Under the pieces are notes generated by a model. It did no database searches and was not told the DNA's origin. It worked only from the letters and a program-made list of their open reading frames with translations. From Candidatus Latescibacterota bacterium (GTDB lineage Bacteria > Latescibacterota > UBA2968): DNA of 64,000 nt. The DNA lies in assembly GCA_965204375.1 (NCBI GenBank), contig OZ241986.1:2176001-2240000 (forward strand), written 5' to 3'. This document shows positions 42,066 to 45,100 of this stretch, piece after piece (position 1 is the first letter of the stretch; each line of letters begins with the position of its first letter). The position numbers and the translations under genes are program-made.

Positions 42066-42170
42066 AAGAAGTAAGAAGTGAAAAGTAAGAAGTGAGAAAG
42101 CCACCCCAAACCGCCTAAAGGCGGGTGCTTCATCACACTTCACACTTCTGCCTTCACACTTCACACTTCC
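42065..42170. repeat. Inverted heptamer arrays (TAAGAAG-like x5 / CACTTCA-like x5-6) enclosing a REP-like palindrome CCGCCTAAAGGCGG
   Basis: Read directly at 42065-42099, 42111-42124 and 42128-42170; the right arm overlaps the stop of the 1029-aa gene. Confidence 0.8.
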
Positions 42171-45100
42171 ATCGGTAACCCCACAAATAACCGACTATAC
42201 TCATCTGTCAACGGATCGCGCTCGCCCTTTTGCGCTGCGCGGGCAAAGACCACACCCGGCTTTTCCGACCTGCGCGCCCGCGCCAAAACGCCATATCCAC
42301 CGGGCGCACTCTGCGTTTCCAGATCGCTCTGAATCGCCAGCATCTCCGCCAGCGCATTGGCCAAACCCCAGCGCGCACCTATCGCCCGCGCAAAAAGCTC
42401 CTCTGGCGTCAGCCCCTCTCGAAAACCGTGCTTCAGGGGCGTAAACCCACCCTGATCATTCCGCGTCACGCCCTGGGGAGCCACATAAAGTCTAACCTGC
42501 TGCCAATTGGCACGCGCACCACATTCCACCAGAAGCGCGGGAATCCCGAGATCATCGTCGTCATATCCGCGAAATCGCGCCAGCACAGCCGACACCTCAT
42601 CGGGATAATCGCGCCAGACATCTGGGTCATCGCCCTCTGGTCGATCGGGCCAATCGAGCGACGAACCGATAAACGCACTCATCGACGCTCCTGTCTTAAG
42701 CGCGGCATCAAACCCTCTATCCCACAATCGCGCTGCCAGATCCAATGCAGCCTTCGAGCCATCGCGCGCTATTGCAGCCGCCATCCAGTCCATCACCTGA
42801 TACTTATCGACAAATAACCCCTTTCGCTCAACCTCATCGCCGACAATCTCCGCAATCTCCTGCAATCCCTCATCCGTCATACTCATATACGCCAGGCCAA
42901 ACAGCGCGTCGTGCATCGGGTGTACCTTCTCGCGTGCAATCAATCCCGGATCCCGCTTCAGATGCGCCACTGCCGATAGATGCGCTTCAGCCGACCGCTG
43001 TCCCTCTTCAGTCACCGGCACAAAAATCGCCACTTGATCGCCATCAAAATCCATATTCATCATCTTGCAAATCGCCACACACACGCGAATTGCCTCACCT
43101 TCCACGCGCACCGGACGACACGCCACAAAAGCCATCGGCGAAAACGCGGGATTGCGAAGCACCACGGCCCACAATTTAGCCATAGCTGCATCCAGGGCTT
43201 CCTCCGCTTTCCTCGACCGCCTATCCACTTCTTCAGCACCCACCTCTCGTGCTGCAAACGGCCCAAACAACGTCCACGCCATTTCCTCGGGCACACCGAC
43301 CTGATCGTATCGCAATTCGGGTGCAGGCACAGCCACCGAACGCCCGCTGAACAACGCCCGCGCCTGAAATTGCAAACGCGACAACTCGCAAAATGCGCGA
43401 ACCCGCTCAGACAGCGTCTCAACCGCACGATCCACCAATATATCTGGCGCACCATTGGCAATCATCTCACTCAACCGGTTATTGGCCTCTCGCAATTCTC
43501 GGGGCACATCTCTCCCACTCACATGTGTCAATGAATACCCCGGCAGCCACGGATGCGGAACCGGACGCGCAAGCGCGACATCTCCACCGCGTTTCAACGA
43601 AAACTCGGTGCCGCGTTCATCCAGTTCAACAGCCACCCCACCTCTTGCCAAATGCCCAATTAGCTCATCAAACTGAGGAGACGGCGTAGTGGGAGCAACA
43701 GACCCCGCAACGACGCGGTCAGCCAGCGTATCGGCATCATCTCGATCTACCGCACACGTATTGAACAAATCGTCAATCACCCCAAAAGCACCCGCTTCTC
43801 GCAACGCCAAAAACTCTGTCTCGCCCAACCTTTGATCGTGTTGATCCGGCTTCACACCCATGTGAATTTTATCTGCTGCCAGATGCAACGTGCGTCCCCA
43901 ATACACCCACCCCACTGTGGTGCGACGCGGCAGCGTTTTCCCATTCACCGTCAGCGTCTCCATACCATCTTCTGCCAGTTCTAAAGCCTTCAACTGCGCC
44001 CGCATCTCATCGTCTTTGGGCGCACTGAGCACAGGAATAATAACCGGCTCTCCCTCGGCCTTTGCAATGCGCCCGGCCACAGCTTCGCGCACCTGACCAA
44101 TATTCAATCGCGACGGCAAACCACACACACTCACAATAAGTTCCACAGGCGTGCCATCCGACAATCTGGGCATATCTTCATCTCGCAAAATGCGCGACAC
44201 CACACCCTTAAAACCGTGCCGATTGCTCAGTTTATCGCCCGACGCAACGCGATTGGGCAACATCATCCGGTTCGCAGCCGATTCGCTGATCACAACTGCA
44301 TCTTCGTGTGTATCACCATTCCACGCCATAAACGCGGTCAGCAAATTGTACCCCGTCCAGAAATGCGAATCGCACGGTTCACATCCCGTCTGCACCAGCG
44401 CGGGTTCCGACTCCAGTGTTTTGCCGTCATATTGCGCGTGATACGCGTGCCACACGCCTTGCTCATCGCGCTGCATATCGGGACTCGGCGCGCCAATCCA
44501 CTGCCGCATCATATTCACGCCCATCAAAACGCGATTGGTATCATTGTGTTCCAAAAACGGGACTACCGAAGCACCTATCCCCAACCGCTTTTCAGGTGCA
44601 TCGTCTTCAATCACCAGCTTGCCATCGCGAATAGTCGCCCCTTGAGCCACCTCTAAAATCCGCGCGAGATTCGGTCCCTCAGGCGTGCAATAAGGACACA
44701 CGCGCCCATCGTGCGACGGATGATAGCAATTCTCTATTCCCTCATCGGCCTCACCGATAATTGGGATCAACGTCACCCGCCGCAAATGAACGTACATATC
44801 CTGCAAATTGGTCGCCTGCAAATACTGAGAGGTCGGTTCTTCCGTAAAAAACGTGTGAATCCAATCTCCTAACGGCATCCATGTGTCAACGGCATCTCCC
44901 AGCATCTCTGGCATATTTTCCAACCGCGCGGCAATATAATCGCGCACTTGCTCGCCCACACACCGAATATCAGCACGCGCCAAATCCACATCCGTCGGGG
45001 CTGGAACCACCGTGCGAAAAAAGCCATCTACCTTAAACCGCCCCCATTCGTCGGGCTGAGGAATATCTTTGTACACAACCTCTTGCCCCCCCTGAATCGT

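What the first reader, a model, noticed from the sequence alone, without database searches (positions are those of the whole stretch)
42161..44330. Selective domain loss in the mini-RNAP: no flap, Zn domains or trigger loop, but sigma2-binding clamp helices kept
Seen by manual alignment: EDAVVISES is only ~12 aa from GDKLSNRHG, so the whole beta flap is gone; switch 3 is shortened; the beta' Zn ribbon, lid and rudder are missing; the bridge helix ([18 protein letters not shown]) runs almost directly into region-H-like GVLARA…[10 protein letters not shown]…LFVG, removing the trigger loop and jaw. The coiled coil [34 protein letters not shown] (~43390-43500) is retained. Known: the clamp helices bind sigma region 2, the flap tip binds sigma region 4, and the trigger loop greatly accelerates catalysis. 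Inference: either a slow, non-processive enzyme (short RNA, primer or signal-nucleotide synthesis) or an RNAP-mimic sigma decoy.
Basis: partly seen in the sequence, partly recalled or inferred. Interest (0 to 1): 0.85.

Follow-up and report, generated by a model that had tools for sequence, protein, structure and literature searches.

The report
Pruned single-chain RNA polymerase with own sigma
This bacterium carries, besides its normal RNA polymerase, a second one in which the two big subunits are fused and cut down to about 40% of their size, always encoded next to its own private sigma factor, a pairing that seems undescribed.

Summary
ORF 42161-45250 (-) encodes a 1028/1029-aa fusion of a reduced RpoB and a reduced RpoC. 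Profile alignment to the genome's own RpoB and RpoC shows these parts are absent:
- the 246-aa flap
- a 14-aa switch-3 loop
- the 24-aa rudder
- everything before the clamp helices except about 34 aa
- all but about 49 aa after the bridge helix

The catalytic residues are invariant in 44 of 44 homologs. The AlphaFold2 model is confident (pLDDT 91.3) and matches bacterial beta and beta'.

New here:
- A dedicated ECF sigma lies directly upstream in 18 of 18 other loci. In the window an ABC transporter gene is inserted between them.
- A conserved ECF promoter, TGAAC(C/T)-N14-GGTGTC, precedes the sigma.
- That promoter has no other strong copy in the 6.3-Mb genome.

Sigma docking on the retained clamp helices stays unproven. 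Their surface varies more than the rest of the protein, and the complex prediction gave only weak support.

Most likely this is an active minimal polymerase controlled by, and perhaps bound to, its own sigma. Seven literature searches found no description of the family.

The parts
42161..45247 (-). Mini-RNAP gene. It is a single-chain fusion of reduced RpoB-like (residues 1-549) and RpoC-like (550-1029) halves. The likely start is the ATG at 45247; the ORF is open from the TTG at 45250. The stop codon is 42161-42163.
   Evidence: AF2 model pLDDT 91.3, pTM 0.89. Foldseek to bacterial and plastid RNAP beta (8.8e-26) and beta' (~1e-20).
43604..45250 (-). Beta-like half (residues 1-549). It keeps remnants of the N-terminal beta regions, the fork region, the hybrid-binding region, the beta double-psi barrel and the beta C-terminal clamp part. 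The lobe is missing.
   Evidence: hhalign: family 35-546 = beta 338-1254 (E 1.4e-68); family 11-83 = beta 28-149 (E 2.4e-4, probability 43.6%).
44213..44305 (-). Flap-deletion junction (residues 316-346). EDAVVISES and GDKLSNRHG are 13 residues apart, where the genome's own RpoB has 246 further residues.
   Evidence: beta 778-1023 absent. The model has no inserted domain here.
44204..44239 (-). Beta active-site motif [12 protein letters not shown] (residues 338-349).
   Evidence: G338, D339, N343, R344, G346, K348 and G349 are invariant in 44 of 44 sequences.
43826..43873 (-). Shortened switch-3 region (residues 460-475). A 14-aa loop of RpoB (1161-1174) is missing after residue 467.
43502..43603 (-). 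Short linker (residues 550-583) standing in for the first ~265 residues of beta'. The Zn ribbon and lid are absent. Only a beta' region-A-like strand (ARPVPHPW) remains.
   Evidence: Weak colinear match to beta' 100-127 (E 0.03; E 0.38). No conserved Cys cluster.
43391..43501 (-). Retained clamp helices (residues 584-620): a helical hairpin with an invariant AP turn.
   Evidence: Ungapped alignment to beta' 266-305. Helices 584-598 and 603-620 in the model. N590, R592, A601, P602, L605 and R616 are conserved, but the region's entropy is 1.75 against 1.42 overall.
43382..43390 (-). Rudder-deletion site (residues 621-623). 24 residues of beta' (306-329) are missing after residue 623.
43034..43057 (-). 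Catalytic Mg-binding motif NMDFDGDQ (residues 732-739).
   Evidence: D734, D736, G737 and D738 are invariant in 44 of 44 sequences. It aligns to NADFDGDQ of the genome's own RpoC.
42311..42415 (-). Bridge helix (residues 946-980).
   Evidence: hhalign to beta' 739-772, E 4.3e-4. Helix 949-980 in the model.
42164..42310 (-). C-terminal tail (residues 981-1029). It replaces ~590 residues of beta' (trigger loop, second Zn site, jaw). It is the best-conserved part of the protein and is possibly region H.
   Evidence: 43% of its columns are at least 90% conserved, entropy 1.13. The region-H match is weak: beta' 1294-1321, E 0.31.
42033..42065 (-). Terminator-like hairpin (14 pairs) plus a T run that closes the operon.
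   Evidence: sequence.
45290..47086 (-). ABC exporter gene (fused membrane and ATPase domains) inserted between sigma and polymerase. It is not part of the conserved module.
   Evidence: Pfam hits. Absent between the two genes in all 18 other loci. One contig in an RNA library joins 45259 to 47201 with 25 other letters between. In the own genus the sigma and polymerase coordinates abut in some genomes and lie ~1.9 kb apart in others.
47179..47772 (-). Dedicated ECF sigma factor (197 aa from the TTG at 47772; sigma2 plus sigma4).
   Evidence: Pfam Sigma70_r2 and r4_2. TIGR02937 scores 120.9 bits against a cutoff of 42.9. It is the best hit in G000 for all 12 polymerase-adjacent sigmas tested. 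Start placed.
47795..47820 (-). Conserved ECF-type promoter TGAACC-N14-GGTGTC, about 22 nt upstream of the sigma start codon.
   Evidence: Same motif with the same 15-nt GAAC-to-GGTGTC spacing in 15 of 17 loci, and a 14-nt spacing in one more. Also in L113. PWM score 39.9 bits here against 21.7 for the next best site in the genome.
47825..47852 (-). Terminator-like hairpin of the upstream gene. Its T run leads into the -35 element.

Best explanation
**What it is.** The gene encodes a catalytically competent, single-chain minimal RNA polymerase. It descends from a fusion of bacterial rpoB and rpoC and was pruned to the two-barrel active centre, bridge helix, fork and hybrid-binding regions, clamp core with clamp helices, and a short C-tail. 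It exists beside the normal rpoB and rpoC.

**How it is expressed.** It forms a two-gene operon with a private ECF sigma factor. The sigma drives the operon from a conserved ECF promoter, TGAACC-N14-GGTGTC. That promoter has standard -35/-10 geometry and the mini-enzyme has no flap to hold sigma region 4. So this first step most likely runs through the host core enzyme.

**What it does.** The polymerase is then the operon's only conserved product, that is, the effector. Sigma probably also touches the retained clamp helices, which would give a feedback or targeting link.

**Shown:** the anatomy, the invariant catalytic residues, the fold, the sigma linkage, the promoter and the bounds of the transcription unit.

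**Inferred:** activity, which enzyme uses the promoter, and the sigma contact. Template and product are unknown.
For: **Colinear homology and deletion map.**

**Invariant catalytic residues.** D734, D736 and D738, G338-D339...R344...K348-G349, and D317 are invariant in 44 of 44 sequences that are 44-92% identical to the window protein.

**Conservation pattern.** The barrels and the C-tail are the best conserved regions.

**Fold.**
- AF2 pLDDT 91.3, pTM 0.89.
- Foldseek gives bacterial and plastid beta at 8.8e-26 and beta' at about 1e-20.

**A maintained gene.**
- It is a second copy on the same 6.34-Mb contig as intact rpoB (1256 aa) and rpoC (1363 aa).
- It is present in 65 of 168 genomes of the phylum and 20 of 20 other genomes of the genus.
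- Only one listed match has an internal stop.
- It is present in 3 of 401 sampled Chloroflexota.

**Sigma linkage.**
- The sigma lies directly upstream on the same strand in 18 of 18 other loci.
- All 12 adjacent sigmas tested hit the window sigma best in G000: 149-317 bits, against 56-100 for the next paralog.
- Polymerase and sigma occur together in 62 genomes, polymerase alone in 3, sigma alone in 1 (at a contig edge), and neither in 102.
- The sigma stop and the polymerase start overlap or lie at most 2 nt apart in 8 of the 12 loci the script resolved, plus L105 read by hand. Three of those 8 are near-identical.

**Promoter.**
- It was found in 16 of 17 loci, plus L113.
- The strict pattern has 3 hits in G000, against 6-9 in shuffles. 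The own-promoter PWM score is 39.9 bits, the next best 21.7.
- Terminator-like hairpins bracket the unit.

**Precedent.** YonO shows that a ~100-kDa chain without a trigger loop, flap, lid or rudder can be a processive RNAP (passages of PMC5467207).

**Complex prediction of sigma with residues 232-1029.**
- Weak support: score 0.37 against 0.00 for the best of 3 controls.
- That mark was reached by 58 of 80 solved complexes and 2 of 110 mismatched pairs.
- At 0.60 or under it was reached by only 7 of the 80 solved complexes and by both mismatches that passed.
- The runs agree in at least 37% of contacts, and the partner pLDDT is at least 65.
- Sigma-core complexes are solved, so the pass may be from memory.
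Against: **No biochemistry.** Activity is inferred from conservation only.

**Clamp-helix surface.**
- It is less conserved than average: entropy 1.75 against 1.42, and 16% of its columns are at least 90% conserved against 37% in the beta barrel.
- Positions that are invariant polar residues in 31 canonical beta' sequences vary in the family. That canonical set is skewed; see Tried and rejected.
- At three sites the family has other conserved residues: A589, A609 and R616. By my recalled E. coli mutational data these sites matter for sigma binding.

**Sigma itself.** Its region 2.2 and region 4 follow the general ECF pattern and are strongly conserved. That fits binding to the invariant host clamp helices as well as, or better than, binding to the variable mini-enzyme helices.

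**Missing docking sites.** The mini-enzyme lacks the flap, Zn ribbon and lid. Those form the sigma-4 dock and the channel that the sigma linker threads (textbook knowledge, recalled).

**Regulation and expression.**
- With a single promoter in the genome, the system as described has no known input signal, and no anti-sigma gene is conserved beside it.
- Expression is not shown. Contigs of relatives lie in RNA libraries of 2 studies, but such libraries can hold DNA.
Confidence: 0.5

Rival explanations
1. Self-contained two-protein holoenzyme. The ECF sigma is the initiation factor of the mini-polymerase itself. Sigma region 2 sits on the clamp helices and region 4 on some new surface. The ~137-kDa pair opens TGAACC-N14-GGTGTC promoters without alpha, omega, flap or Zn ribbon. 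It transcribes its own operon and perhaps targets outside the chromosome.
For: - Strict adjacency in 18 of 18 other loci, with frequent stop/start overlap.
- The clamp-helix hairpin is kept while the neighbouring rudder, lid and Zn ribbon were deleted.
- N590, R592, P602, L605 and R616 are conserved.
- The sigma linker carries an invariant P121/W123 motif that suggests a specific contact.
- Complex prediction: weak support, 0.37 against a best control of 0.00. The mark was reached by 58 of 80 solved complexes and 2 of 110 mismatches. At 0.60 or under it was reached by only 7 of the 80 and by both mismatches. Contact agreement is at least 37% and partner pLDDT at least 65. The pass may be from memory of solved sigma-core complexes.
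Against: - There is no flap tip to hold region 4, yet the -35 element is strictly conserved at canonical spacing. By recall, flap-tip deletion in E. coli abolishes -35-dependent initiation.
- The clamp-helix surface is variable, while sigma region 2.2 is conserved and generic.
- Only one strong promoter copy exists in 6.3 Mb. In 5 other genomes there were 0-6 pattern hits, against 0-4 for the reversed control. The enzyme would therefore mainly transcribe itself.
Confidence: 0.3
2. Core mimic acting as anti-sigma or decoy. The protein sits where ECF operons usually carry the anti-sigma gene. It holds the sigma on its clamp helices and keeps it from the host core. Polymerase chemistry is irrelevant or vestigial.
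For: - It occupies the position directly downstream of an autoregulated ECF sigma, often translationally coupled.
- No other conserved neighbour could serve as anti-sigma.
- Weak complex support (figures as above).
Against: - The catalytic Asp triad, the beta NTP-site motif, the bridge helix and the hybrid-binding regions are invariant or strongly conserved over 44 sequences down to 44% identity. The supposed binding surface is among the least conserved parts.
- No known anti-sigma domain was found in Pfam at E<=0.01.
- A 115-kDa protein is a costly decoy.
Confidence: 0.08
3. Accessory or mobile cassette whose polymerase acts on foreign or unusual nucleic acid, for example copying single-stranded DNA or RNA into hybrids, priming, or defence. 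The sigma serves only as its expression switch.
For: - Patchy distribution: 65 of 168 genomes in the phylum and 3 of 401 in Chloroflexota.
- The flanking genes differ in nearly every genus, while the two genes travel together.
- It occurs in two phyla at 40-49% identity.
- G071 has two copies.
- The parts that strip RNA from the template (lid, rudder, flap) are lost (their roles as summarised in PMC5467207).
Against: - No PADLOC family matches the polymerase.
- No family member occurs in 50,697 phage records; 0 records cover at least 80% of the query.
- No flanking direct or inverted repeats.
- No integrase or defence gene is conserved beside it.
- YonO lacks the same parts and still transcribes double-stranded DNA.
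Confidence: 0.1

Closest known systems
Bacterial RNA polymerase core subunits beta (RpoB) and beta' (RpoC)
   Same: It shares clear sequence and fold homology, colinear with beta followed by beta'. It is 34-41% identical to the genome's own subunits over the conserved blocks. It has the same catalytic motifs, bridge helix, fork region and clamp helices.
   Different: It is one chain of 1029 aa against 2619 aa for the two subunits. It lacks the lobe, flap, switch-3 loop, Zn ribbon, lid, rudder, first rim helix, trigger loop, second Zn site and jaw. It scores far below the NCBIfam cutoffs. It is an extra copy, not the housekeeping enzyme.
YonO of Bacillus prophage SPbeta (single-chain two-barrel RNAP)
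   Same: Both are ~100-kDa single polypeptides with both barrels. Both have no detectable trigger loop and none of the peripheral domains. YonO shows that such an enzyme can be processive (passages of PMC5467207).
   Different: There is no detectable sequence relationship beyond the Asp motif: hhalign probability 0.37%, E 0.16, and BLASTP E>=13. YonO is phage-borne and barely resembles cellular RNAP. This family is chromosomal, plainly derived from bacterial beta/beta', and tied to a sigma factor.
Natural full-length beta-beta' fusions (NCBIfam NF007172 / NF011417)
   Same: The same beta-then-beta' fusion order in one polypeptide.
   Different: Those proteins are ~2840-2890 aa and keep all domains. 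The window protein scores 168 bits against cutoffs of 5372 and 4632.
Non-canonical phage RNAPs (phiKZ and AR9 multisubunit enzymes; crAss-like and P23-45 two-barrel enzymes)
   Same: They are reduced two-barrel enzymes that work without alpha and omega (titles and abstracts in the listing; not read further).
   Different: They are phage-encoded and much more diverged. The best viral structure match is only E 1.4e-17, against 8.8e-26 for cellular beta. None is reported in those abstracts with an ECF sigma.
ECF sigma / anti-sigma operons
   Same: It has an autoregulated ECF promoter, the sigma gene comes first, and the partner gene is immediately downstream and often translationally coupled.
   Different: The partner is an RNAP-derived enzyme with intact catalytic residues. 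It is not a membrane or zinc anti-sigma, and no anti-sigma domain was found.
Alternate beta' paralogs of marine Beggiatoaceae (PMC4679880)
   Same: Both are a second RNAP-subunit-like gene beside the normal one, proposed as a regulator (abstract and passages).
   Different: Those are near full-length beta' only, lack a complete Asp triad and sit next to sensor kinases. Here the protein is fused, pruned and catalytically intact, and sits next to a sigma.

Membership tests
Two-barrel (double-psi beta-barrel) RNA polymerase superfamily | Two barrels that carry the beta-type Lys/Arg motif and the beta'-type DxDGD metal motif | tested here: met
   [12 protein letters not shown] (338-349) and NMDFDGDQ (732-739) are present, with key residues invariant in 44 of 44 sequences. 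Pfam Rpb2_6 5.8e-40 and Rpb1_2 8.9e-16.
Two-barrel (double-psi beta-barrel) RNA polymerase superfamily | Fold of the catalytic core | tested here: met
   AF2 pLDDT 91.3. Foldseek gives 1036 PDB chains at E<=0.001; the 50 listed are beta or beta' chains of bacterial or plastid-encoded RNAP.
Two-barrel (double-psi beta-barrel) RNA polymerase superfamily | Template-dependent NTP polymerisation | not testable with these tools
   Needs a purified protein.
Canonical RpoB / RpoC equivalogs (TIGR02013, TIGR02386) | Score at or above the curated cutoff | tested here: not met
   175.2 bits against 801.15, and 113.9 against 963.5.
Canonical RpoB / RpoC equivalogs (TIGR02013, TIGR02386) | Flap, Zn ribbon, lid, rudder and trigger loop present | tested here: not met
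   Deletion map. Only 3 Pfam RNAP domains are found; Rpb1_1, Rpb1_3, Rpb1_4, Rpb1_5, Rpb2_1, Rpb2_2, Rpb2_45 and Rpb2_7 are not found at E<=0.01.
Full-length beta/beta' fusion (NF007172, NF011417) | Score at or above the curated cutoff | tested here: not met
   168.4 bits against 5372, and 167.6 against 4632.
YonO family | Sequence relationship to YonO | tested here: not met
   hhalign of the family against YonO: probability 0.37%, E 0.16, 23 columns around the Asp motif only. BLASTP E>=13.
YonO family | Single chain of ~100 kDa with both barrels and no trigger loop | tested here: met
   This is a likeness of design, not membership.
ECF sigma factors (for the partner gene 47179-47772) | Sigma2 and sigma4 domains only, and a score above the TIGR02937 cutoff | tested here: met
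   Pfam Sigma70_r2 1.8e-18 and r4_2 8.1e-15. TIGR02937 scores 120.9 bits against 42.9; no narrower NCBIfam model reaches its cutoff.
ECF sigma factors (for the partner gene 47179-47772) | Autoregulatory promoter with an AAC -35 motif and a GTC-type -10 motif | tested here: met
   TGAAC(C/T)-N14-GG(T/C/A)GTC upstream of the sigma in 16 of 17 loci, plus L113. That this is the usual ECF pattern is recalled.
Anti-sigma factors | A known anti-sigma domain | tested here: not met
   No such Pfam family in the 1029-aa protein at E<=0.01.
Anti-sigma factors | Binds and inactivates its sigma | tested here: inconclusive
   Complex prediction: weak support only, 0.37 against a best control of 0.00 (counts in Best explanation).
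Known anti-phage defence proteins (PADLOC) | Match to a defence-system model | tested here: not met
   0 families for the polymerase. The sigma has only weak helix-turn-helix-type hits, at E 0.0012 or worse.

The most novel reading that the evidence does not exclude
The pair is the smallest sigma-dependent transcription machine of the cellular type. A 115-kDa single-chain core and a 22-kDa ECF sigma together recognise TGAACC-N14-GGTGTC promoters with no alpha, omega, flap, Zn ribbon or trigger loop.

A variant is not excluded either. The idle enzyme may park its sigma on the clamp helices and release it when it starts elongating. The host core would then make more enzyme on demand, using the sigma cycle as a sensor.
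Probability: 0.3. Interest if true: 0.92.

Novelty: new variant of a known kind. Interest (0 to 1): 0.82.

Why it matters
**A natural deletion experiment.** This family is a natural test of what the bacterial RNA polymerase core needs. Evolution removed about 60% of beta and beta' and kept the result under selection across at least two phyla.

**Questions it makes testable.**
- If the enzyme is active, it defines a minimal cellular-type catalytic core that is still alignable residue by residue with the well-studied enzyme. YonO is not alignable in that way.
- If it works with its sigma, one can ask how much of sigma-dependent initiation survives without the flap and the RNA exit channel.

**Practical use.** A two-protein sigma-dependent system would be a compact orthogonal transcription system.

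**Biology.** Many sponge- and coral-associated bacteria would then run a second, private polymerase of unknown purpose.

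Tried and rejected
**The search of earlier findings.** It was closed, so no earlier notes were seen.

**Genome-collection scan.** The patterns also matched ordinary rpoB. Only 4 of the 80 loci kept were family members. The other 76 were used only as a source of canonical beta and beta' sequences. That canonical set is therefore skewed to Bacteroidota-like genomes that share the pattern.

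**Cross-phylum claim corrected.** I first took the records titled Latescibacterota (L007, L009) as a third phylum. One search shows they are the same genomes as G142 and G161, which the genome tool places in the window's own phylum. I dropped that claim. The cross-phylum evidence now rests on:
- L008, L113 and L115, from 3 of 401 sampled Chloroflexota;
- the taxa listed by the Atlas.

**Search for a regulon.**
- The strict pattern gives 3 hits in G000, against 6-9 in block shuffles.
- The PWM scan found no site above 21.7 bits other than the own promoter. That promoter was in the training set.
- Five other genomes gave 0-6 hits, against 0-4 for the reversed control.
- The two identical extra hits in G010 lie antisense inside a 659-aa ORF, so I set them aside as chance.

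**Trigger-loop remnant.** I suspected the C-tail might keep the second trigger helix. hhalign and hmmsearch found no such match.

**Other negative searches.**
- Flanking repeats of a mobile element: none.
- Rfam families in the window: none.
- PADLOC: none for the polymerase.
- Phage records: 35 partial matches, none covering at least 80% of the query.

**Sequencing runs.**
- Contigs 90-99% like the window cover the polymerase and sigma genes in RNA libraries labelled coral and sponge metagenome, from 2 studies.
- Contigs cannot show a start, a strand or true transcription, and DNA may be present in such libraries. I do not count this as expression.
- Stretches without cover in those runs mean nothing.

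**Steps not taken.**
- I built no tree to place the family among bacterial beta and beta'. The branch would be long and the canonical sample is skewed.
- I did no coevolution analysis of sigma with the clamp helices. There are too few independent pairs.

**Limits of the literature check.**
- Supplements of papers were not opened.
- Seven searches found no description of this family.
- The library lacks most subscription journals, so this is not proof that the family is unpublished.

**Recalled material.** The E. coli residue numbers for sigma-contact sites and the effect of flap-tip deletion are recalled, not taken from any call.

Full report
**The gene.** The finding lies inside one long ORF on the minus strand, 42161-45250, 1029 codons from a TTG. 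The alignment of 44 homologs starts at the ATG one codon later, at 45247. The finding's coordinates cover only residues ~307-1029.
- EDAVVISES at 316-324
- GDKLSNRHG at 338-346
- the coiled coil at 584-617 (nt 43400-43501)
- NMDFDGDQ at 732-739
- the bridge-helix peptide at 946-963

**Homology.**
- Pfam finds only three RNAP domains: Rpb2_6 (5.8e-40), Rpb1_2 (8.9e-16) and Rpb2_3 (1.4e-4).
- NCBIfam's rpoB, rpoC and fused beta/beta' models match, but far below their cutoffs: 175 against 801, 114 against 963, and 168 against 5372 bits.
- PDB sequences of bacterial beta match residues 119-544 (best 5.9e-44). Beta' sequences match residues 630-798 (9.8e-28).
- The genome is one contig of 6.34 Mb. 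It also carries ordinary rpoB (1256 aa) and rpoC (1363 aa) about 300 kb away. This gene is therefore an extra copy.

**Deletion map.** I aligned the family profile to the genome's own RpoB and RpoC with hmmsearch. I also aligned it to alignments of 31 canonical beta and 31 canonical beta' sequences with hhalign.
- Family 35-546 aligns to beta 338-1254 (E 1.4e-68).
- Family 11-83 aligns to beta 28-149 (E 2.4e-4, probability 43.6%).
- Family 584-968 aligns to beta' 266-766 (E 3.9e-41).

Absent from the family are:
- the beta lobe
- beta 530-596 and 655-728 in pieces
- beta 778-1023 (246 aa, the flap)
- beta 1161-1174 (14 aa, switch-3 loop)
- beta' 306-329 (24 aa, rudder)
- beta' 635-662 (28 aa, first rim helix)
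- all of beta' after residue ~772, apart from a 49-aa tail

Further points:
- Before the clamp helices the family has 34 residues where beta' has 265. There is no conserved Cys cluster, so the Zn ribbon and lid are gone.
Family 557-583 matches the beta' region-A strand (E 0.03-0.38). The tail matches beta' 1294-1321 (E 0.31-0.65).
- I looked for a remnant of the second trigger helix in the tail and found none.

**Structure.** AlphaFold2 on the 44-sequence alignment gives pLDDT 91.3 and pTM 0.89, with no segment below 50.
- The model has no domain between the strands at 319-322 and 340-343.
- It has a helical hairpin at 584-598/603-620 and a bridge helix at 949-980, followed by three short helices.
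- Foldseek against the PDB returns bacterial and plastid beta (best 8.8e-26) and beta' (about 1e-20).
- The viral library gives weaker matches (best 1.4e-17).

**Is it an enzyme?**
- D734, D736 and D738, G338-D339, R344, K348-G349 and D317 are invariant in all 44 sequences, whose identity to the window protein is 44-92%.
- The barrels and the C-tail are the most conserved regions (entropy 1.06-1.18 and 1.13, against 1.42 overall).
- This is the pattern of a working active centre, not of a scaffold.
- YonO is the precedent that such a stripped chain can be fast and processive (passages of PMC5467207).
- YonO is not a relative in sequence: hhalign probability 0.37% and BLASTP E>=13.

**Distribution.**
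- The big protein collection gave 631 proteins at E<=0.001 among 8000 scored candidates. The best 120 listed include full-length members of ~1000-1067 aa. Where a source names them at all, they are called hypothetical.
- The representative library gave 366 clusters at E<=1e-30.
- In whole genomes the gene is in 65 of 168 genomes of the window's phylum and in all 20 other genomes of the genus. Only one listed match carries an internal stop, a TAA in one of the two copies in G071.
- It is in 3 of 401 sampled Chloroflexota.
- Two records titled Latescibacterota turned out to be genomes of the window's own phylum in the tool's taxonomy.
- No family member was seen in 50,697 phage records. No PADLOC model matches.

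**The sigma factor.** This is the main new result.
- Only one gene is conserved next to the polymerase in the 16 other loci clustered. It is an ECF sigma immediately upstream on the same strand. The ORF clustering found it in 12 of the 16. tblastn found it in the other four, where my ORF picker had chosen an antisense frame. It is also present in the two further Chloroflexota loci. That makes 18 of 18.
- In the window the same sigma (47179-47772) is separated from the polymerase by an ABC exporter gene. Other members of the genus lack that gene.
- These sigmas are one orthologous group. All 12 tested hit the window sigma as their best match in G000, at 48-85% identity and 149-317 bits. The next ECF paralog scores 56-100 bits.
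- Across the phylum, polymerase and sigma occur together in 62 genomes, the polymerase alone in 3, the sigma alone in 1 (at a contig edge), and neither in 102.
- The sigma stop and the polymerase start overlap or lie within 2 nt in 8 of the 12 loci the script resolved, plus L105 read by hand. Three of those 8 are near-identical.

**The promoter.**
- Upstream of the sigma gene, 16 of 17 loci carry TGAAC(C/T)-N14-GG(T/C/A)GTC, and so does L113. In 15 loci the gap between GAAC and GGTGTC is exactly 15 nt, and in one it is 14 nt. The motif lies about 20-45 nt before a ribosome-binding site and the start codon. L115 is cut too short to judge.
- This placement moves the window sigma's start to the TTG at 47772.
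- Terminator-like hairpins stand just upstream of the promoter (47825-47852) and just after the polymerase gene (42033-42065). The transcription unit is thus sigma, ABC exporter, polymerase.
- A position weight matrix from 13 non-redundant sites scores the window's own site at 39.9 bits. It was in the training set. The next best site in both strands of 6.34 Mb scores 21.7, below every training site (23.1-39.9).
- The strict pattern has 3 genome hits, against 6-9 in shuffles.
- Five other genomes show 0-6 hits, against 0-4 for the reversed control. One hit is the sigma promoter in each of the four genomes whose site fits the strict pattern.
- The sigma therefore appears to have one target, its own operon.

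**Does the sigma bind the mini-enzyme?** Evidence for:
- the linkage and the translational coupling
- the hairpin is kept while its neighbours were deleted
- N590, R592, A601, P602, L605 and R616 are conserved
- the sigma linker has an invariant P121/W123 motif
- the complex prediction was rated weak support: 0.37 against 0.00 for the best of 3 controls. The mark was reached by 58 of 80 solved complexes and 2 of 110 mismatches. At 0.60 or under it was reached by only 7 of the 80 and by both mismatches. Contact agreement is at least 37% and partner pLDDT at least 65. Sigma-core complexes are solved, so the pass may be memory

Evidence against:
- the clamp-helix columns are among the least conserved (entropy 1.75, with 16% of columns at least 90% conserved)
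- most polar positions that never vary in the 31 canonical beta' sequences vary here
- sigma region 2.2 and region 4 are strongly conserved and of the generic ECF type, which fits the invariant host helices at least as well
- the flap, which normally positions region 4 for the -35 element (recalled), is absent, although the -35 element is strictly kept

**My reading.**
- The promoter is probably served by the host core with this sigma.
- The mini-enzyme is the operon's effector.
- A sigma contact on the clamp helices is possible but open.
- The self-contained holoenzyme remains a serious rival (0.3). The inactive decoy is unlikely (0.08).

**Expression.** Contigs 90-99% identical to the window cover the polymerase and sigma genes in RNA libraries of two studies, labelled coral and sponge metagenome. 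The tool warns that such libraries can hold DNA, and contigs show neither starts nor strands. I count this only as presence of close relatives in those habitats.

**Novelty.** Seven full-text searches found no paper on a pruned beta-beta' fusion linked to a sigma factor.
- The ECF reclassification paper has no mention of RNAP-subunit neighbours under the five terms I tried.
- The nearest item, the alternate beta' of Beggiatoaceae, is a different thing.
- The library lacks most subscription journals, and supplements were closed.
- I file the protein as a new variant within the two-barrel RNAP superfamily. It is not a member of the rpoB/rpoC equivalogs, the full-length fusions or the YonO family. 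It failed each of those tests.

Noticed in passing
window 42065-42100 and 42133-42169: Two heptamer arrays lie right after the polymerase stop codon, flanking a small hairpin. Their units are TAAGAAG (4.9 copies) and TCACACT (5.3 copies). The 37-nt stretch at 42133-42169 has 134 + 16 approximate copies in the genome (up to 4 mismatches), mostly in long tandem arrays. Contigs carrying it have very high depth (807-1212) in the RNA libraries laid.
   Followed up: partly
window 45290-47086: An ABC exporter gene (fused membrane and ATPase domains) is inserted inside the sigma-polymerase operon. The insertion is polymorphic within the genus. The sigma and polymerase abut in G078, G085, G074 and others, but lie ~1.9 kb apart in G086 and G000. 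A contig in one RNA library joins 45259 to 47201.
   Followed up: partly
window 47878-48825 and 48815-49846: Two overlapping genes lie upstream of the sigma promoter. One encodes a 315-aa protein with no Pfam, NCBIfam or PADLOC match. The other encodes a 343-aa protein whose only recognisable part is a DksA/TraR C4 zinc finger at residues 43-77. They are not conserved next to the module in the other loci.
   Followed up: no
window 39107-41940 and 33503-35790: There are two BlaI-type repressor genes (41554-41940 and 35404-35790). The first is followed by an 815-aa BlaR1-like M56 peptidase carrying five TonB C-terminal domains, which is an unusual fusion.
   Followed up: no
protein P0263 (metagenome, 1948 aa): The strongest hits outside the family include long fused polymerases. 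P0263 carries alpha-subunit domains (RNA_pol_A_bac, RNA_pol_L) in front of complete beta and beta' domains in one chain. The Atlas also lists fused clusters of 1221-1787 aa. Other fused or partly reduced RNAPs therefore exist in metagenomes.
   Followed up: partly
G071:C1:1427405-1430584 and 3368600-3371734 (loci L100, L101): One 8.4-Mb genome of the same family has two copies of the sigma-polymerase module. One polymerase copy is reported with an internal TAA. In the other copy the promoter motif lies ~236 nt upstream of the called sigma start, and the sigma and polymerase are 257 nt apart.
   Followed up: no
loci L007, L009 (records titled Candidatus Latescibacterota): These records have the same coordinates and scores as genomes G142 and G161, which the genome tool places in the window's own phylum. 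The submitters' phylum labels (also Gemmatimonadota for some proteins) should not be used to count phyla.
   Followed up: yes
window residues 137-157 of the polymerase (about nt 44780-44842): The stretch that aligns with the rifampicin-pocket part of RpoB is kept but altered. At a position where, by recall, substitutions give rifampicin resistance in E. coli, the protein has Gln (as does the family consensus) where the genome's own RpoB also has Gln and the Pseudomonas aeruginosa RpoB chain has Asp. I did not analyse this further.
   Followed up: no
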